Source: Nitriliruptorales bacterium
GTDB taxonomy: Bacteria; Actinomycetota; Nitriliruptoria; Nitriliruptorales; Nitriliruptoraceae
Direction of reading: 5' to 3'
DNA length: 64,000 bases
Assembly (NCBI GenBank): GCA_033722375.1
Contig: JAWVZB010000001.1
Span: forward strand, 5,175 to 69,174
Position 1 is the stretch's first letter; each line of letters begins with the position of its first letter. The notes beneath the pieces are model-generated. The model was not told the DNA's origin and did no database searches. It worked only from the letters and a program-made list of their open reading frames with translations. Shown piece by piece: positions 427 through 14,900 of the stretch. Made by a program: the position numbers and the translations under genes.

Positions 427-1365
427 TCAGGCTTGGCTGGTGATCTGATCGATCTCGCGGCGGTCGTCGGGAGGGAGTTCCCATCCGGCTGCGGCCACGT
501 TCGCGTGCACCTGGTCGGGCGTCGTCGCGCCGGCGATCACCGAGGCGACCACGTCGTCTGAGGCCAGCCACGAGATCGCGAGCTCCAACAGCGTGTGTCC
601 ACGCCTCTCCGCGAACGACTCGAGTTCAGCAGTCGTGCGGAGGTTCTCCTCGTTGAGGAACCGCTGCGCGCGTTCTCGGGGGATGGACCCGAGTCGCGTA
701 CCGGGGGGCGGTTCCTCGCCGAGCTCGTACTTGCCGGTCAGAACGCCAGAGGCGAGGGGGTAGTAGGGCAGCACCGCGAGGCCGTGACGACGGCAGGCGG
801 GGATCACCTCGTCCTCGACATCGCGGTGCAGCAGGTTCCAGTGGTTCTGCGCGGAGACGAACCGCGCGAGAGCGTGGTCGCGGGCCGCAGTCTCCGCCTC
901 GTCGATCTGGCGGCCGGAGAAGTTCGAGCACCCGATCTCTCGCACCTTGCCCGCGTGGACGAGCTCGTCGAGGGCTCCGAGTGTCTCCTCGATCGGGACG
1001 TCCTCGTCGGGCCGGTGGAGCTGGTAGAGGTCGATGTAGTCGGTCCCCAGGCGGCGCAGCGAGTCCTCCACGGCGGTCGTGATCCAGTCCGGGGAGGCGC
1101 CCTGACGGGCGGGATCGTCCCCCATCTGCAGCCCGAACTTGGTCGCGATGATCGCCTCGTCTCGTCGGTCACCGAGTGCCGCTCCGAGGATCTCCTCGGA
1201 GCGTCCCTCGCCGTACCGGTCCGCCGTGTCGAACAGCGTCACCCCGGCATCGAGGGCAGCCCGGACGACCCGCTCGCTCTCGGCGGCCTCGAGCCGGCCA
1301 CCGAGGTTGTTGCAGCCGAGTCCCACGATCGACACCGTGAGCGATCCGATCACCCGCTGTCGCAT
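427..1365 (-). CDS. aldo/keto reductase family oxidoreductase
   Basis: The C-terminal 312 aa of ORF 427..2058 carry AKR motifs (LGCNNLGG, FDTADRYGEGRSEEILG, IATKFG, YIDLYQLHRPD, IGCSNF). The ATG at 1365 follows the low-quality upstream run-on. It is divergent from the ligase gene. Confidence 0.9.
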   Translation of the reverse strand: MRQRVIGSLTVSIVGLGCNNLGGRLEAAESERVVRAALDAGVTLFDTADRYGEGRSEEILGAALGDRRDEAIIATKFGLQMGDDPARQGASPDWITTAVEDSLRRLGTDYIDLYQLHRPDEDVPIEETLGALDELVHAGKVREIGCSNFSGRQIDEAETAARDHALARFVSAQNHWNLLHRDVEDEVIPACRRHGLAVLPYYPLASGVLTGKYELGEEPPPGTRLGSIPRERAQRFLNEENLRTTAELESFAERRGHTLLELAISWLASDDVVASVIAGATTPDQVHANVAAAGWELPPDDRREIDQITSQA

Positions 1366-1422
1366 CTGTTCCTCCACTGGGACGTTGCCGCGTTGCCGGA
1401 CGACGTTAGGGTGGCGCTCGAC

Positions 1423-2454
1423 ATGTCGAGTTGGCCGTTCGATCCGCCCCTGGCGCCCATGGAGGCGCGCGTCCGCAAGACCCTCCCTGACGGCGCTTGG
1501 GCCTACGAGCCGAAGTGGGACGGGTTCCGTTGTCTCGCGTGGAGCGGGCCCGAGCCCCGTCTCGACAGCCGCAACGAGAAACCGTTGTTGCGGTACTTCC
1601 CGGAGCTCGAAACAGCGATCGACATGCTCCCCGAGGGGTCGGTGGTCGATGGAGAGGTCGTGATCGTGACGAGCGGGCGTCTCGATTTCGACGCCCTCCA
1701 GCTCCGGCTTCACCCGGCCGAGTCGCGGGTGGAGATGCTCGCCGAGCAGACCCCCGCCCGGCTCATCGCGTTCGATGTGCTCGCGGTGTCGGGGCGGGAC
1801 CTGCGGGAGGAACCGTTCGAAGCCCGTCGGGCGGAGCTCGAAGCGCTGTTCTCCGACCTCGACCCACCATGGCACCTCACGCCCTCGACCACCGACCGTG
1901 ACACCGCCGAGCGCTGGTTCGATCAGTTCGAAGCGGCGGGCTGTGACGGGCTCGTGGCCAAACGCCTCGACGGTCCCTACGAACTCGGTGAACGGGCGAT
2001 GGTGAAACTCAAGCACCGCCGCAGCGTCGACTGTGTCGTCGGGGGATACCGGGTCCACAAGGAGGGCGACCGGTTGGGCTCGTTGCTACTCGGGCTCTAC
2101 GACGACAACGGTGAACTGCACTTCATCGGGCACTGCTCGGGGTTCCCCGACCAGGACCGCATCGAACTCCTCGAACTACTGCAACAGCATCAGGTCGAGG
2201 ACAGCTTCGGCGAGAACGTCCGTCGCCCCGGTCAGGAGAGCCGCTGGTCCTCCGGCAAGGATCTGTCCTGGCACCCGGTCGCGCCGGGGCTCGTCGTGCA
2301 GGTCAGCTACGACCAGCTCACGGGCGACCGCTTCCGGCATGCCACGCGCTTCGAGCGGTGGCGCCCCGACAAGGATCCCACCGCCTGCACCATGGATCAG
2401 CTCGAGCGCCCCGAGGGGCCGAGTTTCGACGACGTCGTCGCCGCTGACGGCTGA
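1423..2454 (+). CDS. ATP-dependent DNA ligase, stand-alone LigC-like (ligase plus OB domain only)
   Basis: The in-frame ATG at 1423 (alternative GTG at 1411) gives 343 aa. Adenylation motif I is YEPKWDGFR, followed by VDGEVV, DGLVAKRLDGPYELGER and MVKLKHRRSVDCVVGG. The part of ORF 595..2454 upstream of 1411 is antisense to the AKR gene. Confidence 0.85.
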   Translation: MSSWPFDPPLAPMEARVRKTLPDGAWAYEPKWDGFRCLAWSGPEPRLDSRNEKPLLRYFPELETAIDMLPEGSVVDGEVVIVTSGRLDFDALQLRLHPAESRVEMLAEQTPARLIAFDVLAVSGRDLREEPFEARRAELEALFSDLDPPWHLTPSTTDRDTAERWFDQFEAAGCDGLVAKRLDGPYELGERAMVKLKHRRSVDCVVGGYRVHKEGDRLGSLLLGLYDDNGELHFIGHCSGFPDQDRIELLELLQQHQVEDSFGENVRRPGQESRWSSGKDLSWHPVAPGLVVQVSYDQLTGDRFRHATRFERWRPDKDPTACTMDQLERPEGPSFDDVVAADG

Positions 2455-2471: not shown

Positions 2472-3464
2472 TCAGTCCTGTGGCTCGCGCGCACGCGACG
2501 GGTTCACCCTCGGGGGCTCGCCCGGTTGCTTCGGATAGTGAGGCGGCCACGGGGCGTCCCCGAGGCCACGCTCCTCGTCCGCGAGCACGCGCTCGAGCGT
2601 CCTGCCGAGGTCGTGGTGGTGGTCGTCGAGCGGGGCGTACAGATCACCGACCTCGCGGTAGCGCTCGGGGAAGCGATCCATCGGGAAGTCCTCGATCGCG
2701 ACCGCGTCGAGCTCGTCCCACGTGAAGGGAGCCGACACGAACCCCGTCTGGCGCACGCTGTAGGCGCTGGCGACGGTCTTGTCCCGAGCCGTCTGATTGA
2801 AGTCGATGAAGACACCGTCGCGCTGTTCCTTCCACCACTTCGAGGTCGCGACGGGGTTGCGGCGTTCCGCCTCACGGGCGATCGCGAGCGCCGCGCGCCG
2901 CACCTCGTGGAAGGTCCACCGTGGCTCGATCCGGACGTAGACGTGGATCCCCGTCGAGCCGGACGTCTTCGGGAAGCCGTGCAGCCCGTCCTCGTCGAGG
3001 ATCTCGCGCACCGTCGCGGCAACCGAGCGGACCTCGTCGAACCCGTGCCCGGGAGTGGGGTCGAGGTCGAGCCGCAGCTCGTCAGGATGGTCCGTGTCCT
3101 CTGCCCGGACCGGCCACGGATGCAGGTCGATGGCGTTGAGCTGGACCATCCGCACGATGTCCGCGGGCGTCCGCGGTACCCACATCGGGCCCGGCTGCGC
3201 CGAGGCGAACCGCACCCGGACCGTCTCGATGCCCGCGCGGGGCTTGGTGCGGCGGAGGTAGAAGGGGTCTTCTCCCACGCCCCGAGGCCATCGCTTGAGC
3301 TGACAGGGCCGCCCCACCACAGCTCGCAACGCGCCGTCGCCGCACGCCAGGTAGTGCTCGATGACGTCGTGCTTGGTCCAACCCTGCTCGGGGAAGAGGA
3401 CCTTGTCCGGGTGCGTGACCCGGACGGGCTCACCGGCGACCTCGAGGTGGATCTCGTCGGTCAC
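2472..3464 (-). CDS. primase-polymerase (LigD PolDom / Prim-PolC-like, archaeo-eukaryotic primase superfamily)
   Basis: 330-aa ORF with typical PolDom strings (VTHPDKVLFPE, LKRWPRGV, LDLDP, FPKTSGSTGIHVYVRI, DFNQTARDKTVASAYSVR). It is convergent with the ligase, with 17 nt between the stops. Confidence 0.85.
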   Translation of the reverse strand: MTDEIHLEVAGEPVRVTHPDKVLFPEQGWTKHDVIEHYLACGDGALRAVVGRPCQLKRWPRGVGEDPFYLRRTKPRAGIETVRVRFASAQPGPMWVPRTPADIVRMVQLNAIDLHPWPVRAEDTDHPDELRLDLDPTPGHGFDEVRSVAATVREILDEDGLHGFPKTSGSTGIHVYVRIEPRWTFHEVRRAALAIAREAERRNPVATSKWWKEQRDGVFIDFNQTARDKTVASAYSVRQTGFVSAPFTWDELDAVAIEDFPMDRFPERYREVGDLYAPLDDHHHDLGRTLERVLADEERGLGDAPWPPHYPKQPGEPPRVNPSRAREPQD

Positions 3465-3476
3465 CCGGGCACCGGA

Positions 3477-6531: not shown

Positions 6532-7344
6532 GTGGCAGAGCGCGTCACGATCGTGTGGGTGCACGGAGGCGGCTGCGATGGCTGCACTATGTCGGTTCTC
6601 GGGGCGACCTCCCCGCGGCTCGAGGAGCTCGTCAGTGGCCGCTTGACCCGCTCGGAGATCAGCGTGGTGCACCCGCACCTCGTCGTCGAGGCGGGGGACG
6701 CCTACGTCGCGGCGCTCGACGCTGCTCGGCACGGACAATCGGACCCCTACGTCCTCGTGGTCGAAGGTTCGATGTTCGACGAGGCCCTGGCCGGGGCGGG
6801 AACGTTCTCGCGTCTCGGACAGCGCGACGGGGTGCCCGTCACCGTTGAGCAGTGGGTCAGCGACCTGGCGCCCGGGGCGGCAGCGGTGGTGGCGATCGGG
6901 ACGTGCGCCACCTGGGGCGGCATCCCGGCGGCCCGCGGCAACGTGACAGGGGCAGGCGGTGTCGACCAGGTGCTCGGTGCCGACTACGAGAGCGCGACGG
7001 GTCTCCCGATCGTCAACGTGCCAGGCTGCGCCCCGAGCGGGGATGCGTTCCTCGAGACGATCCACTACCTGCTGCTCCACTTCGAGGGAGCGGTGCCGTT
7101 CGACATGGACGAGCTCGGTCGCCCGCGGTGGCTCTACGCCGACGAGACGCCACTGCGGCGGCCACGGCTCCCCGGGATCGCCCGCGAGCCGGACGACGAG
7201 CTCACCGCTGCCTGTCCCGTCCCACAGCGGGGGTGGATCAACCGCCTGGGAGGTTGCGCGAGCGTGGGTGGCGACTGCAACGGGTGTACCCGCCCCGATT
7301 TCCCTGACCGCACGCTGCCACTCGTCGCCGTGACCCGGGACTGA
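6532..7344 (+). CDS. [NiFe]-hydrogenase small subunit, short form without Tat signal
   Basis: Contains VWVHGGGCDGCTMS (CxxC of the proximal cluster), IGTCATWGG, VPGCAPSG and the C-terminal WINRLGGCASVGGDCNGCTRPDF. GTG start with GAGG 5 nt upstream. The stop is 6 nt before the large-subunit gene. Confidence 0.85.
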   Translation: MAERVTIVWVHGGGCDGCTMSVLGATSPRLEELVSGRLTRSEISVVHPHLVVEAGDAYVAALDAARHGQSDPYVLVVEGSMFDEALAGAGTFSRLGQRDGVPVTVEQWVSDLAPGAAAVVAIGTCATWGGIPAARGNVTGAGGVDQVLGADYESATGLPIVNVPGCAPSGDAFLETIHYLLLHFEGAVPFDMDELGRPRWLYADETPLRRPRLPGIAREPDDELTAACPVPQRGWINRLGGCASVGGDCNGCTRPDFPDRTLPLVAVTRD

Positions 7345-7350
7345 TCGGCC

Positions 7351-9192
7351 GTGTGCTTCAACAACCTCCCGATCCTCTTCGATGACTCCGGACGCGCGCG
7401 GCTGGACGAATCACGTGGCTTCGCGGTCGACACCGCGCCGCGTGAGGCGCCGGCCTACGTCGCTCCCTCCGAGGCCAAGGGGAAGACCTTCTCGATCGAT
7501 CCGGTGACCCGGGTGGCCGGCGCGCTCGCGTTCCACACCACCGTGGACCTCGAGGACCGCGTCGTCACGAGCGCACACTCACAGGCTGTGCTGTTCCGTG
7601 GCTACGAGCTGATCCTGCGCGATCGGGAGCCCGAGGAGGCCATCCACATCTCGTCCCGTGCGTGCGGTGTCTGCGGCGGGGTCCACTCCACCGCGTCGGC
7701 CATGGCACTCGAGATGGCCTTCGGCGTCGTGCCTCCGCCGCTCGCGATCATCGCGCGCAACCTCGCCGAAGGGGCGGAGCTGCTCTACGACCACTGCCTG
7801 CATCTGTTCCTGCTCGCGGGGGTCGACTACTCGCAGCAGGTGGTCGAGCAGACGAGCCCCGGGTTGTGGCGACGCGCACAGCGGACCGCTGCTCCGAACG
7901 CCGGCACGCACGGCTTGATGACGATCGCCGACATCATGACGGGTCTCAACCCGCTGCGAGGCAGTCTCGTGACCGAGGCGCTCGAGGTGACCCGGACCGG
8001 ACGCGAGATCGTCTCGCTGGTCTACGGCAAGTACCCCCATCCCTCGGCGATCGTCCCGGCCGGGCTCGGAACGAGTCTCGACCACGCCACCTTGAACCAG
8101 GTTCTGTCACGGATGGTGCGGCTGCTCGATTACGCGAAGAAGGTCGCCACGTTGTGGGACGATCTGGTCGAGTTCTTCCTCGAGGCCGATCCCGACTACC
8201 GGCTGGTCGGTGTTCGCCCCGCCAACCTCATCAGCACCGGCATGTGGGACGACCCCCGCGTCTACGACGCCACCTACGCGAACGCCGACGCGTGGGGGCA
8301 GCGCCGCCTCACGACACCGGGGGTGGTGATCGACGGCGAGCTGCGGACCACGAACCTGCGGCAGATCAACCTCGGGATCGAGGAGTTCGTCGACCACTCG
8401 TTCTACGAGCGGTGGGCCGACGACGACGAGCCCGGGGAGGCACCGGACGGGGCGCCGCTGAGTCCGTTCCACCCGTGGAACAAGCGCACCATCCCCCGTC
8501 CCGAGGCAACGAGCTGGCGGGACCGCTACTCCTGGTCCACCGCCCCGCGCTGGGACCGCGAGGCGATGGAGTCGGGACCGCTCGCCCGGCAGTGGATCAC
8601 GGTCGCCGCGGGACTGGTCGAGACGGAGTTCATCCGGACGGCGCCCGGACGGCTCGAGATCGTCGTCCCCGAGAGCTCCCTGCCCGAGATGACGATCACC
8701 TGGCGGGTGCCCGACACGGTCAACGCGCTCGAGCGGATCCGCGCTCGTGCGACCCACGTGGCCTACTGTCTCATGGCGGGCTACACCTACCTCCTCGAGG
8801 CGTTCGACGCGTTCCGCAGCGGGGAGACCGAGATGGCCGCACCCTACGAGGTCACCGACGGGGTTGGGGTCGGCTTCTGGGAAGCGGGACGGGGAACGCT
8901 CACCCACTACGCGACGATCGAGGACGGCAAGCTCGCCAACTACCAGATCCTCACGCCGTCCACCTGGATGGCCTCGCCTCGCGATCCGTGGGATCTGCCC
9001 GGCCCCTACGAGGAGGCCGTCCTGAACACGCCCATCCTCGAGCACACCGAGGACCCGGACGCGTTCACGGGGATCGACATCCTCCGCACGATCCGGAGCT
9101 TCGATCCGTGCCTGCCCTGTGCCGTACATCTGCACACCGGCGGTGGCACGATCGTCCGGGATGCGACGAGCTGCGCGTGTGGTACGTCATGA
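7351..9192 (+). CDS. [NiFe]-hydrogenase large subunit
   Basis: N-terminal IDPVTRVAGA, L1 motif SSRACGVCGGVH, L2 motif SFDPCLPCAVH followed by a 20-aa tail. Total 613 aa. GTG start at 7351; the exact start is uncertain. Confidence 0.9.
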   Translation: MCFNNLPILFDDSGRARLDESRGFAVDTAPREAPAYVAPSEAKGKTFSIDPVTRVAGALAFHTTVDLEDRVVTSAHSQAVLFRGYELILRDREPEEAIHISSRACGVCGGVHSTASAMALEMAFGVVPPPLAIIARNLAEGAELLYDHCLHLFLLAGVDYSQQVVEQTSPGLWRRAQRTAAPNAGTHGLMTIADIMTGLNPLRGSLVTEALEVTRTGREIVSLVYGKYPHPSAIVPAGLGTSLDHATLNQVLSRMVRLLDYAKKVATLWDDLVEFFLEADPDYRLVGVRPANLISTGMWDDPRVYDATYANADAWGQRRLTTPGVVIDGELRTTNLRQINLGIEEFVDHSFYERWADDDEPGEAPDGAPLSPFHPWNKRTIPRPEATSWRDRYSWSTAPRWDREAMESGPLARQWITVAAGLVETEFIRTAPGRLEIVVPESSLPEMTITWRVPDTVNALERIRARATHVAYCLMAGYTYLLEAFDAFRSGETEMAAPYEVTDGVGVGFWEAGRGTLTHYATIEDGKLANYQILTPSTWMASPRDPWDLPGPYEEAVLNTPILEHTEDPDAFTGIDILRTIRSFDPCLPCAVHLHTGGGTIVRDATSCACGTS

Positions 9193-9202
9193 GGGGCCGC
9201 CC

Positions 9203-10942
9203 GTGAGCACGGACGAGGAGGAGCCCGGCGACGAGGCCGGCACCTCGTCGGCAGGGTCGGGCGTGACCATGCGGCGCCTGTCGCAGGCGTTGGATTCCCT
9301 GGCCGAGGTGCAGGCCGACCTCGACGAGGAGCGGCTCCGCCGGTTCCAGGCGGAGGCACTCCTGGACCGCCTGTTCACGTCGATGTCGGATGCGGTGCTG
9401 GTCGTGGATCCACATGGCGAGGTCGTGCGGGCCAGTGGTGCCGCCCCGCGCCTGTTCGGTCGGCCCGAGGACGAGCTGATCGGATCCGTGCCGGAGGGGT
9501 GGTACGAGGACGAGGTTCCCCTCCGTCCCTGGGACCTCCTCGAACGCGCCCCGTCCGGGCAGTTGCACCTCGAGACGGTGGTCCAGCGACCGGATGGCAG
9601 CAGCCGTGAGGTGAGCCTGTCCTGCACCGTGATCCGGGACCGCGACGGCAAGGTCACCGGAGCCGTACACGCAGCTCGCGACCTCAGCAACGTGCACTAC
9701 CTCCTGCGTGAGGTCCGGGCGGCCGAACAGCGCTGGCGCCTGCTGGCCCACGTCGGAGCTCGACTGTCCGAGGCGCTCGATCCGGAGGACGTGCTCGGGG
9801 AGCTCGTGACCTACCTCGGTGGGGAGACCGAGCTCGGTGTGGCGCTGCTGTTGACAGACGACGGAGTGATCGAGGTCGTGCATCTGTCCCCGGACGTCCC
9901 GGACGGCGAGGTCCTCGACGGGCTCGTCGGGACGGCTCCGTCGGCCGGTTCCAGCCTCGCGGCGGTGCTGGCGGACGGTCAGACGGTGCATGCCCCCGCC
10001 CCACCCTCCGACTTCCCGCTCGCTGGGCCCGCCCTCCCGGCGATGGCATCGGCGGCGGTGCTCCCGCTCACCGCCGACGACCGGACCTTCGGGGCGATGA
10101 TCGTCGCGTCACCGGAGGCGCGTGCGGTGCGGGAGGAACACGTGGACCTCTTCGAGGAGGTCGCCGCACGGATCGCCCTCAGCATCGCGAACGCGCGCTT
10201 GCAGCGTCGGATCATGGAACACCGTGCCGAGCAGGAGGCGGTGGCGTACCGCGACCGCATCCTTGAGGCGATCTCGCACGAGATGAAGACCCCGCTGGCG
10301 GTCCTCACGGGCCAGCTCAAGCAGCTCAAGACCGCCGGCGGGTCCGTCGAGCCCGCCGCGCTCGAGAAGATCGTGGCCAGCGTCGATCGACAGGTCATCC
10401 GGCTCCGGCGGCTCGTGACGCAGTTCCTCGACTACATCCGGGTCGAAGCCGGGCATGAACTGGCGGTCAGCACCCGTCCCGTCGACGTGCGCTCGCTGGT
10501 CGAGACGACCGCCGAGACGGTCGCAGACGAGGGTCGGCTGCGGCTCGACCTCCCCGCCGACCTCCCTCCCGCGGAGGCGGACACGAACCGGCTCGACCTG
10601 GCGCTGGCGAACCTGATCTCGAACGCCCTGAAGTACGCGCCCTCCTCCACCCCGGTCACGGTCACCGGTCGCGAGGCGGGGCGACACGTCGAGATCAGCG
10701 TCACCGACGAAGGGCCCGGCATCCCGATCTCCGAACAGCCGCGACTGTTCGACAAGTTCGCCCGTGGATCCGAGGAGAGTGGGGTCGAAGGGAGCGGCCT
10801 CGGGTTGTACATGACGCGCCAGATGATGCACAGTCAGGGTGGCGAAGTACGGCTGTCGAGCCGCCCCGGAGAGGGAAGCCGGTTCACGCTGGTGTTGCCA
10901 CGCTCGGACGTTGAAGACGAGGGGGACAACGATGAGCAGTGA
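9203..10942 (+). CDS. soluble sensor histidine kinase (PAS - GAF - HisKA - HATPase_c)
   Basis: No TM segment. PAS-like region (LFTSMSDAVLVVDPHGEVV ... DRDGKVTGAVHAARD). GAF-like region. H-box ISHEMKTPLAVL. N/G boxes NLISNALKYAP, DEGPGIP and GSGLGLYMTRQM. In-frame GTG at 9203, 10 nt after the hydrogenase stop; an alternative ATG lies about 66 nt further on. Confidence 0.85.
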   Translation: MSTDEEEPGDEAGTSSAGSGVTMRRLSQALDSLAEVQADLDEERLRRFQAEALLDRLFTSMSDAVLVVDPHGEVVRASGAAPRLFGRPEDELIGSVPEGWYEDEVPLRPWDLLERAPSGQLHLETVVQRPDGSSREVSLSCTVIRDRDGKVTGAVHAARDLSNVHYLLREVRAAEQRWRLLAHVGARLSEALDPEDVLGELVTYLGGETELGVALLLTDDGVIEVVHLSPDVPDGEVLDGLVGTAPSAGSSLAAVLADGQTVHAPAPPSDFPLAGPALPAMASAAVLPLTADDRTFGAMIVASPEARAVREEHVDLFEEVAARIALSIANARLQRRIMEHRAEQEAVAYRDRILEAISHEMKTPLAVLTGQLKQLKTAGGSVEPAALEKIVASVDRQVIRLRRLVTQFLDYIRVEAGHELAVSTRPVDVRSLVETTAETVADEGRLRLDLPADLPPAEADTNRLDLALANLISNALKYAPSSTPVTVTGREAGRHVEISVTDEGPGIPISEQPRLFDKFARGSEESGVEGSGLGLYMTRQMMHSQGGEVRLSSRPGEGSRFTLVLPRSDVEDEGDNDEQ

Positions 10943-11306
10943 CCACGATCGGCGCGTCCTGCTCCTGCTGGTCGACGACGAGCCCGAGATCCGCATGCTC
11001 CTCCGCACCATGCTGGGGGTGCGCAACTGGAACGTCGACGAGGCGTCGTCCGGCCCTGAGGCGCTCGAGAAGTGTGACGAGGACGGCTACCGGGCGATCA
11101 TCCTCGACCAGCGGATGCCGAGGATGACCGGCCTCGAGGTCGCCCGGGAGCTCCGCGACCAGGGCAACGAGACCCCCATCGTGCTCTTCTCCGCCTACCT
11201 GGAACCCGACGTGGAGGCGGGCGCCCAGGAGCTCGGCTTGCCAACGGTGCCGAAGGACGACTTCGACCAGCTCTTCGATGTTCTGGAGCGTCTCGTGCGT
11301 GCCTGA
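10932..11306 (+). CDS. single-domain (receiver-only, CheY-like) response regulator
   Basis: 124 aa with LLLLVDDEPEIR, AIILDQRMPRMTG, IVLFSAY and PKD. No output domain. The ATG at 10932 overlaps the kinase stop by 11 nt. Confidence 0.85.
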   Translation: MSSDHDRRVLLLLVDDEPEIRMLLRTMLGVRNWNVDEASSGPEALEKCDEDGYRAIILDQRMPRMTGLEVARELRDQGNETPIVLFSAYLEPDVEAGAQELGLPTVPKDDFDQLFDVLERLVRA

Positions 11307-11321
11307 GTCGTGCGACTCAGG
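11302..11321. terminator. palindromic hairpin spanning both convergent stop codons (candidate bidirectional terminator)
   Basis: CCTGAGTCG-TG-CGACTCAGG is a perfect 9-bp inverted repeat. It contains the TGA of the response regulator (11304-11306) and the complement of the protease stop (11317-11319). Confidence 0.45.
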
Positions 11322-11844
11322 ACCGGTGGGGTGGGCTCGGGGCCGTGAGCCGCGCCACCTCGGCGTCGATCCTCGCGAGCAGGTCGGGGACGAGCGCCAG
11401 GGCGTCCGCTGATGGTTCCGCCGCGAAGCCCGTGTCGATGGGTTCGACCTCGAGGACGCAGGTGTCCTCCGGCAGTGCGCCGTAGTAGGCCGTGATCGCC
11501 AGGATGTGATCGAGGTCGATCACACCGGAGACGCTCTCGCCGAGCCTCGCCTGGAGCTCTGCTGGATCCGGCCCGTCACGCTGCGGAGCTCGCCATCGGA
11601 TCGTGCCGGGCTCATCGCCGCGCGGGTGGCACGCCACGATCAGGAGGGCGTCCGGAGCCAGCTCCTGGAGTAGGTGAACCACCCGGTGCGCGGCCACGGT
11701 GACCTCCTCGACGTGGACCCCGGCCGGCAGGACCCGTTCGCGGCATCGGCGGGCCACGAGGGGGCCGAGGTCGAGGTCACCGGCCCACGGGATCCCGACG
11801 CCGGCGATCAGCAGCGATACTTCGTCGGTGGTCGTTCGTGGCAT
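11317..11844 (-). CDS. hydrogenase maturation endopeptidase-like protein (HybD/HycI/HoxW family, divergent)
   Basis: 175 aa. LLIAGVGIPWAGDLDLGP resembles the GxGNxxxxDDGxG start of the family. DALLIVACHP and VIDLDHILAI resemble the second and third conserved blocks. Assignment is by hand alignment only. Confidence 0.55.
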   Translation of the reverse strand: MPRTTTDEVSLLIAGVGIPWAGDLDLGPLVARRCRERVLPAGVHVEEVTVAAHRVVHLLQELAPDALLIVACHPRGDEPGTIRWRAPQRDGPDPAELQARLGESVSGVIDLDHILAITAYYGALPEDTCVLEVEPIDTGFAAEPSADALALVPDLLARIDAEVARLTAPSPPHRS

Positions 11845-11990
11845 GTGCCGACCTTAGGTCGTCGGCCCGCTCTCGGGCGCGGCGGTTTCGCGACAACCGA
11901 CCTTCGTGCAGACCGACCCACGTCTGACGGTCACTACCCTGGCGAGGCTCGCCCCCGGCGAGGCCCCTCGTAGTCAGGAACAGGTCGACG

Positions 11991-14900
11991 GTGACGGATC
12001 AGGGACAGCACTCCGTCTCGGCACGGCACGCCCACCTGACGTTCGTGCCGGGGGAGCTCGCACCGGCCTCCGGAGCGTTCGTCGTCTGGGGGGTTGACCA
12101 TCCGGATGAGGCTGCGCTCGAGCTCGGGTTCCCGGCTGGCGAGAAGGGCCGGCTGCGGACGGTCGTGCGGGGCGACGACGGCCGGCTGGAGCGTCGTGAC
12201 GTGGACGGTCGCGTGATCCCGCTCGTGCCCATCCTGCGGGTCCTGGCCGCGATGCCGCCGGGTTCGGATCATGCTCCGTGGCAGCGGCCGTCGGACAGCG
12301 TGCTCGCCTGGAGCGTCGCGGCGAAGCTCGCGCTCGAGTTCGTGTCGGCCGGACGCGTGGTACCGAGCTTCCAGGCGGATCAGGGCGGCGACGAGGGACG
12401 CGCGATCTGGCGCTGCGTACCGACCTCCGACGGCCGGCTCGCCCACCTCGCCGAGGCGATGCCGCTCGCCGCCACCGCGTTGCGGAGCGACGAGGACGAC
12501 GCCACGGTCTGGGTACCGCTGCGCCTCCTGCGATCCTTCTGCGACGCGGTCGCGGACGCGTGTGGTCGCGCCGGGAGGCGGCCCGAGGTCGATCCGCGCC
12601 GGCGCGGGGCGCGGCGCCCGTGGGAGGAGATGTGGGCCGACGCGCTCGCGAGTGCTGATCCCACGGTGTCCCGGCTGCGGATGGATTCTGGAGAGCTCGC
12701 GGACGCCGTGCAGGACTGGGCCAGTCCCTACCTGGGCCGCCGCGAGGGACGGTCGGTGCAGCTGCTGCTGAAGCTGGAGCCGCCGGCGACCGAGGACGGG
12801 TCGGTCGCCCCGCTCGAGGTGCCGTCGGGGGAGTGGCGCCTGAGCTTCCATCTGCGTTCCATCCTCGACGAATCCGCGGTGGTGCCTGCCGGAGACGTCT
12901 GGGGGGCGGACGGGGTGGTCGAACTCGCCGGCAAGCGGGTGCACGACGCCGCCGAAGTGCTCGTGCGTGCTCTGGCTGGGGCGGCCCGGCTGTTCCCCCC
13001 TCTGGAGCCGGTCCTCTCCGATGCGTCGCCGACGGGTATCGACCTGTCCGGTCCCGAGGTCGCGCAGCTCTTGACCGGCGACCTCGATGCCCTGGTGGAT
13101 GCCGGCATCGCCGTGCAGATCCCACCGGAGCTGCGACAGGCGGACGACCGCCGCCTACGGATCCGCGCCCGGATCGGCAGGACCACCGATGCTGACATCG
13201 GCTCGCTCGCGGACGCCGGGTTCTCCCTGCCCGACCTGACCCAGTTCGAGTACGAGCTGGCTATCGGCGACGACGCGCTGACCGAGGAGGAGTTCGCCGA
13301 GATCGTCAAGGCCAAACAGCCACTCGTGCGCTGGCGCGGCCAGTGGGTGCGGGTCGAGCGTGACGAGGCCGACCGGCTCGCAGCGATCGCGGGAACCACC
13401 GGCACCCTCGACGTCACCGAAGCGTTGGCGGCGGCGTTGGCGGGCCAGCGCCGCGACGACGAACTCGGACTCGTGGACACCGTGGCGTCGGGCGAGATCC
13501 TGGCGCTGGTGGAGCGGCTGGTGCAGGAGGGGGCGGACCTCGACGACCCCAACCTCGACGGCATCGACGGTGACCTGCGCGACTACCAGCGACGCGGCAT
13601 CGCCTGGCTGCAGCAGCTCGCTGCCCTGGGGCTCGGCGGGGTGCTCGCCGACGAGATGGGGCTCGGCAAGAGCGTGCAGGCCATCGCGCTCATGACCGCG
13701 CGGCGACAGGACCGTCCCCACCTGGTGGTGTGCCCGACCTCGGTCGTCGGCAACTGGGAGCGCGAGATCGCCAAGTGGACCGGTGACTTCCCGAGCATCC
13801 GCTACCACGGGCCCGACCGCCCCAGCACGATCCGTGCCTTCCACCCCGGCCACATCACGGTCACGACCTACGCGCTGCTGCGGCGGGACATCGACCTGCT
13901 CGAAGCCGTCGACTGGGACGTGGTGGTGTTCGACGAGGCGCAGAAGATCAAGAACGCCGAATCCAAGGGCGCGAAGGCCGCGCGGGCACTCGACGCCCGG
14001 GTCAAGATCGCGATGACCGGGACGCCGATCGAGAACCGGCTGTCCGAGCTGTGGGCGATCATCGACGTGACCAACCCGGGGCTGCTCGGATCCCGGCGGC
14101 GCTTCAACGAACGGTTCGGCGTGCCCATCGAGCGTTGGCACGACGCCGAGGCCGCGGAGCGGTTGCGCCGGCTCATCGCGCCGTTCGTGATGCGCCGCCT
14201 CAAGTCCGACCCCGAGGTGTCGGTCGACCTCCCCGAGAAGCAGGAGATCACCGTCCACTGCTCCCTCACCCGCGAGCAGGCGTCGCTCTACCAGGCGGCG
14301 GTGGACAAGGCGTTCTCGGGGGAGGGCCTCGGCGCCACGACCTTCGAGCGGCGCGGGCGGATCCTCGCCCTGCTCACCGCGCTCAAGCAGATCTGCAACC
14401 ATCCGCGCCAGTACCTGCGTGACGGCAGCCGACTCCAGGGCCGGTCCGGGAAGCTCTCGCGGGTCACCGACATCCTCCAGGAGGTGGTCGCCTCGGGCGA
14501 CCACGCGCTCGTGTTCACCCAGTACAAGCAGATGGGCGATCTGCTCGTCGAACACCTCGAGTCGGCCCTCGACCTGCCCGAGGTCCCGTTCCTGCACGGC
14601 GGCACCGCCATGTCGGCGCGGGAGGCCATGGTCGATCGGTTCCAGGAAGCTCCGGATGCCCCGCCGATCCTGCTCGTGTCGCTGCGGGCGGGGGGCACCG
14701 GTCTGAACCTCACCCGCGCCACGGAGGTGATCCACTACGACCGCTGGTGGAACCCCGCGGTCGAGCAGCAGGCCACCGACCGCGCTCATCGCCTCGGACA
14801 GACCCGCCCCGTCACGGTCCACGCGCTCGTGACCGCCGGGACCGTCGAGGACCGCATCGCCGAGCTCCTCCAACAGAAGAAGGATCTCGCCCGGCAGGTG

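What the first reader, a model, noticed from the sequence alone, without database searches (positions are those of the whole stretch)
6532..7344. Hydrogenase small subunit with only eight cysteines: distal Fe-S cluster ligands absent, medial site has four Cys
The 270-aa protein has Cys only at positions 15, 18, 125, 166, 228, 242, 249 and 252. The first four match the proximal-cluster ligands of standard small subunits (CxxC, GxC, GC). C228, C249 and C252 match the medial-cluster pattern (C...CxxC within W....C.GC..P.F). C242 occupies the position that is Pro in [3Fe-4S] enzymes, which predicts a [4Fe-4S] medial cluster. The segment that normally carries the distal-cluster HxxC...C.....C ligands (residues about 170-227 here) contains no cysteine at all. 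A two-cluster relay with no surface-exposed distal cluster would not deliver electrons to a conventional redox partner. That fits a signalling role or a novel partner. The protein also starts directly at the conserved core, with no twin-arginine leader.
Basis: partly seen in the sequence, partly recalled or inferred. Interest (0 to 1): 0.7.

Follow-up and report, generated by a model that had tools for sequence, protein, structure and literature searches.

The report
Two-cluster hydrogen-sensor hydrogenase small subunit
This gene encodes the small subunit of a [NiFe] hydrogenase that has lost its outermost iron-sulfur cluster and sits in an operon with a histidine kinase and a response regulator, so it is most likely a previously undescribed type of hydrogen sensor, evolved from the enzymes that bacteria use to consume hydrogen from air.

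Summary
ORF 6532-7344 (+) encodes a 270-aa [NiFe]-hydrogenase small subunit with exactly eight Cys. Aligned to HofK (5AA5), HoxB and HoxK, four are proximal-cluster ligands and four are medial-cluster ligands. The distal H-x-x-C...C-x5-C ligands and the ~100-aa C-terminal tail are gone.

This is a family trait, not an error. All 101 full-length homologs of 120 keep the eight Cys, and no conserved Cys/His/Asp/Glu column replaces the distal site. All 77 standard group-1h-like small subunits retrieved keep the distal motif.

The large subunit (7351-9192) has an intact NiFe site and is closest to group 1h (HofG, 491 bits). It belongs to a clade of large subunits paired with short small subunits (NJ bootstrap 93/100), far from the group 2b sensor HoxC.

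The operon continues with a PAS-GAF histidine kinase and a receiver-only response regulator. A kinase follows in 11 of 14 loci with readable downstream sequence. Several loci adjoin a standard 1h-like operon. One metagenomic gene fuses a hybrid kinase to the short small subunit.

Best reading: an independently evolved H2-sensing regulatory hydrogenase with a two-cluster relay. I found no description of it in the searchable literature.

The parts
6532..7344 (+). Small subunit, 270 aa. It has eight Cys, no Tat signal, no distal-cluster ligands, and only 18 residues after the last Cys.
6574..7029 (+). Span holding the four proximal [4Fe-4S] ligand codons: C15 (6574-6576), C18 (6583-6585), C125 (6904-6906), C166 (7027-7029). 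The coordination is all-Cys, whereas HofK has Asp at the C18 position.
   Evidence: invariant in A1/A2
7138..7212 (+). Residues 203-227. This is a variable, Cys-free linker that replaces the distal-cluster ligand stretch (H-x-x-C ... C-x5-C) of standard small subunits.
7213..7287 (+). Four medial-cluster ligand codons: C228 (7213-7215), C242 (7255-7257), C249 (7276-7278), C252 (7285-7287). They predict a [4Fe-4S] cluster that becomes the terminal cluster of the relay.
7351..9192 (+). [NiFe] large subunit, 613 aa. Both NiFe-binding motifs are intact: RACGVCGGVH (7657-7686) and DPCLPCAVH (9103-9129). A 20-aa C-terminal extension follows (9130-9189). The protein is group-1h-like.
9203..10942 (+). 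Sensor histidine kinase. The start is an in-frame GTG at 9203, 11 nt after the large-subunit stop; an alternative ATG lies about 66 nt downstream (near 9270). Domains: coiled coil-PAS (9362-9694), GAF (9782-10192), HisKA (10250-10453) with H-box SHEMKTPL (10274-10297), and HATPase (10580-10903).
10932..11306 (+). Receiver-only (CheY-like) response regulator, 124 aa. Its ATG overlaps the end of the kinase gene by 11 nt.

Best explanation
The four genes at 6532-11306 form an H2-sensing module.

Proposed mechanism:
1. A cytoplasmic [NiFe] hydrogenase heterodimer splits H2 at a normal NiFe site. It descends from the group 1h ('actinobacterial', high-affinity) lineage.
2. The electrons can move only onto a truncated relay: an all-Cys proximal [4Fe-4S] cluster and a four-Cys medial [4Fe-4S] cluster.
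3. The distal, surface-exposed cluster and the C-terminal tail that couple 1h enzymes to their electron acceptors have been deleted. The enzyme therefore cannot feed a respiratory chain. It instead reports H2 availability as the redox or conformational state of the dimer.
4. The co-encoded PAS(-GAF) histidine kinase reads that state. It probably docks on the small subunit near the now-terminal medial cluster.
5. The kinase changes phosphorylation of a receiver-only response regulator. That regulator relays to outputs such as uptake-hydrogenase expression.

Shown here: the ligand pattern, family-wide conservation, an intact NiFe site, phylogenetic placement, operon structure and its conservation, proximity to 1h operons in several genomes, and a kinase-small-subunit fusion.

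Inferred: cluster types, H2 dependence of signalling, the docking site, the sign of regulation and the regulated targets.
For: Ligand pattern:
- Mapped against HofK (5AA5), HoxB and HoxK.
- The eight Cys are invariant in 101 of 101 full-length homologs, and nothing conserved replaces the distal site.
- 77 of 77 standard relatives keep the distal motif.

Large subunit:
- Both CxxC motifs are kept.
- Only one clade-specific substitution was found at positions conserved in standard 1h-like large subunits.
- Best solved relative is HofG at 491 bits, against 207 for Hyd-1 and 157 for Huc.
- Large subunits paired with short small subunits are monophyletic in 93 of 100 NJ bootstraps. The 1h-like super-clade excludes HoxC in 100 of 100.

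Operon:
- The kinase starts 11 nt after the large-subunit stop, and the response regulator overlaps the kinase by 11 nt.
- A histidine kinase directly follows the short small subunit and large subunit in the window, L001, L002, L003, L083, L085, L088, L089, L090, L091 and L094. It is absent in L087, the P0075 contig and L014.
- A receiver-only regulator then follows in the window, L083, L085, L088, L089 and L090.

Link to uptake hydrogenases:
- L001 reads sensor genes, two kinases, a REC-GerE (LuxR-type) regulator, then a standard 1h-type small subunit.
- L089 has a standard 1h-type pair 1.5 kb downstream.
- L002 and L011 lie on one contig, 16 kb apart, with HypE-like and NifU genes between or beside them.
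- L086 and L097 lie next to HofKG-type operons.

Fusion (Rosetta-stone evidence):
- P0123/L091 is a single uninterrupted 1171-aa ORF: REC-PAS-REC-HisKA-HATPase followed by a short 8-Cys small subunit.

Kinase:
- The kinases are collinear with HoxJ. The L085 kinase matches HoxJ at 26% identity end to end, pairwise E 3e-28.
Against: - There is no biochemical evidence. Cluster number and type are inferred from ligands alone.
- The window's large subunit keeps a C-terminal extension and Val/Leu at the RH gas-channel positions. It therefore lacks the hallmarks of the known sensor RH and looks catalytically ordinary.
- The response regulator has no output domain, and no hydrogenase, hyp or protease gene lies within the 64-kb window, so the regulated target is unknown here.
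- Two relatives with an intact large subunit (L087, the P0075 contig) lack an adjacent kinase.
- The PAS domain shows no conserved Cys or His that would suggest a redox cofactor.
- All carriers found are metagenome-assembled genomes or metagenomic contigs, so nothing can be tested genetically yet.
Confidence: 0.75

Rival explanations
1. It is an energy-converting uptake hydrogenase with an unconventional electron exit. The exposed medial cluster hands electrons directly to a soluble or membrane partner not encoded nearby. The kinase and regulator merely control expression of the operon, or respond to a different signal.
For: - The large subunit is indistinguishable from standard 1h-like catalytic subunits at conserved positions.
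- It keeps the protease-type C-terminal extension.
- It has the standard Val/Leu channel residues.
- Two relatives with an intact large subunit lack an adjacent kinase.
Against: - The tail and distal cluster used by 1h enzymes for partner coupling are both deleted.
- None of the accessory genes of 1h operons (NifU-like, DUF5947, DUF6084) accompany it.
- The kinase linkage is conserved across phyla, and a covalent kinase-small-subunit fusion exists.
- Several genomes already carry a standard 1h-type enzyme beside it.
Confidence: 0.12
2. It is a redox, O2 or CO sensor built on a hydrogenase scaffold rather than an H2 sensor. The Fe-S clusters, or the NiFe site binding another gas, provide the signal.
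For: A sister sub-branch (L003, L014) keeps the eight-Cys small subunit but has lost the NiFe-binding cysteines of the large subunit. L003 is still followed by kinase-like ORFs. The Fe-S part can therefore be maintained without an H2-splitting site.
Against: - In the window and its nine closest relatives, all four NiFe cysteines and the rest of the catalytic core are strictly conserved.
- The modules recur beside H2-uptake and maturation genes.
Confidence: 0.08
3. The distal cluster is not really missing. It is ligated by non-Cys residues or supplied in trans. Alternatively, the gene is a decaying paralog or an assembly artefact.
For: Nothing beyond the general possibility. Unusual ligands do exist in this lineage: HofK uses Asp at the proximal cluster.
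Against: - No conserved H, D, E or C column exists in the replaced segment, and its length varies from 14 to 33 residues.
- The pattern recurs in more than 100 independent assemblies from several phyla, with 50-75% identity and many invariant positions.
- The model folds confidently as a small subunit.
Confidence: 0.03

Closest known systems
Group 2b regulatory hydrogenase with its two-component system (Cupriavidus necator/R. eutropha HoxBC-HoxJ-HoxA; R. capsulatus HupUV-HupT-HupR)
   Same: - Cytoplasmic [NiFe] heterodimer with no Tat signal.
- Encoded together with a PAS histidine kinase and a response regulator.
- The kinase is collinear with HoxJ.
- Proximal and medial sites are both four-Cys.
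- One family member (L091) has a large subunit ending exactly at the CxxCxxH histidine, like HoxC.
   Different: - Unrelated lineage: the large subunit is 29% identical to HoxC against 41-55% to 1h-like enzymes, and HoxC falls outside the clade in 100 of 100 bootstraps.
- RH keeps three [4Fe-4S] clusters with a His/3Cys distal site (PMC5665086), while this family has two sites.
- RH has a ~50-aa small-subunit C-terminal tail (its role in kinase binding is from my own knowledge). Here the tail is 18 aa.
- RH has Ile/Phe in the gas channel (PMC11023054), while this protein has Val/Leu.
- The window's large subunit keeps a C-terminal extension.
- The regulator is receiver-only, not a sigma-54 activator.
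Group 1h (formerly group 5, 'actinobacterial-type', high-affinity) uptake hydrogenases: HofKG/AH of C. necator (PDB 5AA5), Hhy of mycobacteria and streptomycetes
   Same: - Closest sequences and fold: the small subunit matches 5aa5_A at E 4.5e-55 and TM 0.84, and the large subunit matches 5aa5_C at 491 bits.
- The L1/L2 motifs and the CxC-containing C-terminal extension are the same as in standard 1h-like large subunits.
- Cytoplasmic, with a four-Cys medial site.
   Different: - Lacks the distal cluster ligands and the ~100-aa small-subunit tail.
- Lacks the NifU/DUF5947/DUF6084 accessory genes.
- The small and large subunit genes abut directly and are followed by signalling genes.
- Forms its own clade.
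- The proximal site is all-Cys, unlike the 3Cys+Asp of HofK.
Group 2c (diguanylate-cyclase-linked, putative) [NiFe] sensors and group C [FeFe] sensory hydrogenases (HydS)
   Same: Hydrogenase modules genetically wired to signalling domains (HydDB, PMC5037454). One relative (L088) is followed by a REC-GGDEF-EAL-STAS protein.
   Different: - Different lineages.
- No group 2c sequence was available here for comparison.
- [FeFe] enzymes are unrelated in fold and cofactor.

Membership tests
[NiFe]-hydrogenase small subunit (Oxidored_q6 / NiFe_hyd_SSU_C) | Flavodoxin-like N-domain carrying four proximal-cluster ligands (CxxC, GxC, GC) | tested here: met
   Pfam PF01058 at 8.4e-24. C15/C18/C125/C166 align with the ligand columns of HofK, HoxB and HoxK. 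Foldseek TM 0.84 to 5aa5_A.
[NiFe]-hydrogenase small subunit of groups 1/2 (three-cluster relay) | Distal cluster ligands H-x-x-C ... C-x5-C | tested here: not met
   Absent in the window and in all 120 homologs. Present in 77 of 77 standard relatives.
Group 1h [NiFe] hydrogenase | Large subunit clusters with HofG/Hhy-type sequences and shares their L1/L2 motifs | tested here: met
   5aa5_C scores 491 bits against 207 or less for other groups. The 1h-like super-clade has 100/100 support. Motifs are SSRACGVCGGVH and SFDPCLPCAVH. Within that super-clade it forms a separate clade (93/100).
Group 1h [NiFe] hydrogenase | Small subunit with three clusters and a long C-terminal extension; accessory genes (NifU-like, DUF5947, DUF6084, protease) in the operon | tested here: not met
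   Two ligand sets only, and an 18-aa tail. No such genes anywhere in the 64-kb window, in contrast to the pHG1 AH operon.
Group 1h [NiFe] hydrogenase | High-affinity, O2-insensitive H2 oxidation coupled to the respiratory chain | not testable with these tools
   Requires enzyme kinetics.
Group 2b regulatory hydrogenase (HoxBC/HupUV) | Large subunit phylogenetically within group 2b | tested here: not met
   29% identity to HoxC, and HoxC lies outside the clade in 100 of 100 bootstraps.
Group 2b regulatory hydrogenase (HoxBC/HupUV) | Three [4Fe-4S] clusters; small-subunit C-terminal peptide; large subunit ending at CxxCxxH; Ile/Phe gas-channel gate | tested here: not met
   Two sites and no tail. 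A 20-aa large-subunit extension. Val/Leu at HoxC I62/F110. Reference features come from PMC5665086 and PMC11023054.
Group 2b regulatory hydrogenase (HoxBC/HupUV) | Genetic linkage to a PAS histidine kinase and a response regulator | tested here: met
   The kinase linkage is conserved in 11 of 14 informative loci.
Group 2b regulatory hydrogenase (HoxBC/HupUV) | H2-dependent control of kinase activity | not testable with these tools
   Needs phosphorylation assays.

The most novel reading that the evidence does not exclude
H2 sensing was invented a second time, inside the lineage of atmospheric-H2-oxidising (group 1h) hydrogenases found in Actinomycetota, Chloroflexota and Acidobacteriota. The route was deletion of the distal Fe-S cluster, so that the medial cluster becomes a surface 'contact' read directly by a kinase. 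In some organisms the kinase is covalently fused to the small subunit. Such a sensor might be tuned to trace H2. It would also offer a minimal, two-cluster system for settling whether regulatory hydrogenases signal by electron transfer or by conformational change.
Probability: 0.35. Interest if true: 0.85.

Novelty: new variant of a known kind. Interest (0 to 1): 0.7.

Why it matters
The only experimentally established H2-sensing [NiFe] hydrogenases are the proteobacterial group 2b enzymes. Papers up to 2026 still cite C. necator as the example (PMC13098282 and PMC13289019). High-affinity hydrogenase carriers such as Streptomyces have been described as lacking an H2 sensor (PMC4767420).

A 1h-derived, kinase-linked sensor would change that picture in three ways:
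- It would show that some Actinomycetota, Chloroflexota and Acidobacteriota do monitor H2.
- It would give metagenome annotators a recognisable marker: a small subunit of about 270 aa with eight Cys, followed by a large subunit and a PAS kinase. This protein is currently labelled 'hypothetical protein' or mislabelled 'HypE'.
- It would give biochemists a stripped-down relay, plus a natural kinase fusion, for studying how hydrogenase state is converted into a phosphorylation signal.

A small subunit with just proximal and medial clusters is, to my knowledge, not a described cofactor arrangement.

Tried and rejected
- **Sequencing error or frameshift hiding a Cys-rich segment.** Rejected, because the pattern is conserved in 120 homologs.
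- **Non-Cys distal ligands.** Rejected, because residues 203-227 hold no conserved H, D, E or C column.
- **Membership of group 2b.** Rejected by phylogeny and four structural hallmarks.
- **Hydrogenase, hyp, protease or nickel-transport genes elsewhere in the window.** tblastn with pHG1 proteins found none. Pfam on neighbouring ORFs gave unrelated functions: FadD-like ligase, LigD, SNF2 helicase and AtuA.
- **Promoter/terminator scan and inverted repeats upstream of the operon.** Nothing usable. Rfam found nothing, and only one tRNA-Ser was detected.
- **Redox-cofactor ligands in the kinase PAS domain.** No invariant Cys or His.
- **Sensor-specific substitutions in the large subunit.** Only one position differs, A132 against Gly.
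- **Metagenome-contig scan.** It added only seven more short-type loci, mostly on short contigs.
- **Literature.** Eight full-text searches and several readings found no description of a 1h-derived or two-cluster sensor. The Greening et al. 2016 ISME J survey is not held, so a mention there cannot be excluded.

Full report
**1. The observation**

ORF 6532-7344 (+) is real. It starts at GTG, encodes 270 aa and cannot be extended upstream. Its cysteines are exactly at 15, 18, 125, 166, 228, 242, 249 and 252. Pfam calls the N-terminal part Oxidored_q6 (8.4e-24) and the C-terminus a weak NiFe_hyd_SSU_C match. The identical protein is in NCBI as 'MAG: hypothetical protein R3343_00075 [Nitriliruptorales bacterium]'. 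The window is 69% G+C.

**2. Which ligands are which**

The best solved relative is HofK, the small subunit of the actinobacterial-type (group 1h) hydrogenase of R. eutropha (5aa5_A, E 4.5e-55). HMMER aligns it in two pieces that skip about 15 more residues in HofK than in the query.

I fetched HofK/HofG, HoxB/HoxC/HoxJ/HoxA and HoxK/HoxG from megaplasmid pHG1. I aligned them with the query and with small subunits taken from related genomic loci. The result:
- C15, C18, C125 and C166 sit in the proximal-ligand columns. HofK has Asp where the query has C18.
- The distal ligands of every reference are missing from the query, together with a 12-18-residue deletion. They read 'VHDGC...NCIVKLGCWGP' in HofK, 'VHHGC...GCMMENMGCKG' in HoxB and 'IHDKC...FCLYKMGCKG' in HoxK.
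- C228 aligns with the first medial Cys ('vvqCNV').
- C242 aligns with 'GGC'. This column is Pro in HoxK, whose medial cluster is [3Fe-4S].
- C249/C252 align with 'CIGC'.
- The ~100-aa C-terminal tail of 1h-like small subunits and the ~50-aa tail of HoxB are both absent.

An AF2 model built on 45 homologs is confident (pLDDT 83, pTM 0.88). Its best structural match is 5aa5_A, with TM 0.84.

**3. Error or chance?**

Neither.
- The protein search returned 1261 relatives. The best 120 (49-76% identity, 175-310 aa) were aligned.
- All 101 full-length members keep all eight Cys. The other 19 are N-terminally truncated and keep the six Cys columns they cover.
- 111 of 120 have no Cys at all between the fourth proximal and first medial Cys. 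The other nine have one non-conserved Cys.
- No column in residues 203-227 conserves His, Cys, Asp or Glu, and the segment varies from 14 to 33 residues.
- By contrast, 77 of 77 standard-length small subunits from the retrieved loci have the full H-x-x-C...C-x5-C motif plus the four-Cys medial motif.

At the level of 50%-identity clusters the short type is only a handful of clusters. The family is compact, but it spans Actinomycetota (Nitriliruptorales, Acidimicrobiia), Chloroflexota (Promineifilaceae, Dehalococcoidia) and Acidobacteriota.

**4. The partner large subunit**

ORF 7351-9192 (613 aa) is a NiFeSe_Hases protein. Its features:
- Both metal-binding motifs are intact: RACGVCGGVH and DPCLPCAVH.
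- A 20-aa C-terminal extension follows.
- HofG is by far its best solved relative: 491 bits, against 207 for E. coli Hyd-1 and 157 for Huc.

In NJ trees of 76 large subunits, those encoded next to a short small subunit form one clade (93/100 bootstraps). That clade sits inside a 1h-like super-clade which excludes the group 2b sensor HoxC (100/100).

Identities of the window's large subunit:

| Compared with | Identity |
|---|---|
| Closest clade members (excluding the L003/L014/L091 sub-branch) | 63-71% |
| Standard 1h-like enzymes | 50-55% |
| HofG | 41% |
| HoxC | 29% |

Only one position separates the clade from standard enzymes at otherwise conserved columns. The residues at the RH gas-channel gate are the ordinary Val/Leu, not Ile/Phe (PMC11023054). 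The catalytic subunit therefore looks normal, and the specialisation lies in the small subunit.

**5. Surroundings**

- Eleven nucleotides after the large-subunit stop, an in-frame GTG (9203) opens a 579-aa kinase with a coiled coil, PAS, GAF, HisKA and HATPase domains.
- Its last 11 nt overlap the ATG (10932) of a 124-aa receiver-only response regulator.
- No hyp, protease, nickel-transport or second hydrogenase gene lies in the 64-kb window.
- Flanking genes are unrelated: a FadD-like ligase, LigD ligase and primase, an SNF2 helicase.

**6. Is the linkage conserved?**

Yes. A histidine kinase directly follows 'short small subunit - large subunit' in L001, L002, L003, L083, L085, L088, L089, L090, L091 and L094 as well as in the window. 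It is absent in L087, the P0075 contig and L014. In L083, L085, L088, L089 and L090, as in the window, a receiver-only regulator follows the kinase.

Outputs vary:
- a LuxR-type REC-GerE regulator in L001;
- REC-GGDEF-EAL-STAS in L088;
- PadR regulators in L002, L088 and L089;
- a REC-ParA-like protein in L091.

Several modules adjoin genes for a standard uptake enzyme:
- L001 runs sensor, two kinases, LuxR-type regulator, then a standard 1h-type small subunit.
- L089 has a standard pair 1.5 kb downstream.
- L002 and L011 are 16 kb apart on one Acidimicrobiia contig, with HypE-like and NifU genes between or beside them.
- L086 and L097 sit beside HofKG-type operons and a HycI-like protease.

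The strongest single item is P0123 (locus L091). It is one uninterrupted 1171-aa ORF in which a REC-PAS-REC-HisKA-HATPase hybrid kinase is fused to a short eight-Cys small subunit. An intact large subunit, a second PAS kinase and a regulator follow it.

The kinases are collinear with HoxJ, including the N-terminal helix and PAS domain. The L085 kinase matches HoxJ at 26% identity over 439 residues, pairwise E 3e-28.

**7. Mechanism**

Established knowledge of [NiFe] hydrogenases: electrons leave the NiFe site through proximal, medial and distal clusters spaced about 12 Å apart. The His-ligated distal cluster is the surface exit.

Here the exit and the tail are deleted, while the active site and two four-Cys sites are strictly conserved. 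I infer that H2 reduces a closed two-cluster relay, and that the state of this relay is read by the PAS kinase. The kinase probably sits on the face vacated by the distal domain. This is analogous to RH-HoxJ-HoxA, where H2 reduces the medial and distal clusters (PMC5665086). The sign of control, the targets and the H2 threshold are unknown.

Rival readings, each weighed in the Rival explanations section of this report:
- a catalytic enzyme with an unusual acceptor;
- a non-H2 redox sensor;
- a hidden third cluster.

**8. Comparison with what is known, and novelty**

It works like a group 2b regulatory hydrogenase but fails every structural and phylogenetic membership test for that group. It belongs to the 1h-like super-clade but fails the three-cluster, tail and accessory-gene features.

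- HydDB lists only groups 2b and 2c as [NiFe] sensors (PMC5037454).
- Recent papers still cite C. necator as the example sensor.
- S. avermitilis work explicitly notes the lack of an H2 sensor for high-affinity enzymes (PMC4767420).
- Eight full-text searches found no description of this family.
- The 2016 ISME J survey could not be read.

I rate it a new variant of a known kind.

**9. Verdict**

The best explanation is an independently evolved, two-cluster H2-sensing hydrogenase module (confidence about 0.75). Interest: 0.7.

Noticed in passing
L003:8883-10676 and L003:10751-12583 (Blastocatellia MAG); L014:3048-4817 (Acidobacteriota MAG): In a sister sub-branch, the large subunits next to eight-Cys short small subunits have lost the NiFe-binding cysteines. 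The N-terminal motifs read RLSGRASGAH, RIKGTSSGAH and RACGTESVAH. The ORFs stop at TAG or TAA right after RSFDP or RSFDV, just before the C-terminal CxxC, so these are not selenocysteine codons. L003 has two such genes in tandem and is still followed by kinase-like ORFs. L014 is followed by an MFS transporter. These are hydrogenase-like proteins without an H2-splitting site.
   Followed up: partly
L091:106-3621 (protein P0123, Logan SRR24490439_4651); large subunit at L091:3628-5322: A natural fusion of a REC-PAS-REC-HisKA-HATPase hybrid kinase to a short eight-Cys small subunit, in one 1171-aa ORF with no Ns. The adjacent large subunit keeps both CxxC motifs but ends exactly at DPCLSCAVH, with no C-terminal extension, like the known sensor HoxC.
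   Followed up: yes
L092:1014-2066 (protein P0121, 2.9-kb contig): An HTH_17 (excisionase-type DNA-binding) domain and a short small subunit lie in one 350-aa ORF, followed by a large subunit. This could be a one-component DNA-binding H2 sensor or a gene-calling artefact. It is a single observation on a short contig.
   Followed up: partly
Protein P0126 (328 aa): A small subunit whose sequence resembles standard 1h-like enzymes ('SCDGCTVAVTGG', 'CNVGTVG') and keeps part of the tail, yet also lacks all distal ligands. This may be an independent loss of the distal cluster or an early branch of the family.
   Followed up: no
L002:12340-13128, L088:3405-3767 (-), L089:2347-2769 and 7739-8167: PadR-family regulators recur next to the sensor module. 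In L002, PadR and receiver domains lie in one ORF. This may be the missing DNA-binding output for the receiver-only regulators. No PadR gene was detected next to the operon in the window.
   Followed up: partly
L002:13150-16036; L090:504-2117 and 9284-13058: SBP_bac_5/BPD_transp ABC transporters (the family that includes the NikA nickel system) flank the sensor module in two loci. L090 also has a HypC gene next to it.
   Followed up: no
window 9130-9189 and the equivalent regions of L052, L060, L011, L061: The C-terminal extension of the large subunit carries a conserved '(R/E)(D/V)xT-C-x-C-G' CxC motif, shared by the sensor clade and standard 1h-like enzymes but absent from HofG-type enzymes. 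Its role, for example in metal handling during maturation, is unknown.
   Followed up: no
(database annotations): Small subunits of this whole 1h-like super-family are frequently mis-annotated in RefSeq and GenBank as 'hydrogenase expression protein HypE'. This includes HofK on pHG1. The window's own protein is annotated 'hypothetical protein'.
   Followed up: no
window 595-2454 (+) and 2472-3476 (-): An ATP-dependent DNA ligase (NF006078, 447 bits) and a LigD primase-polymerase domain protein are encoded convergently, tail to tail. This is a split NHEJ LigD system, unrelated to the finding.
   Followed up: no
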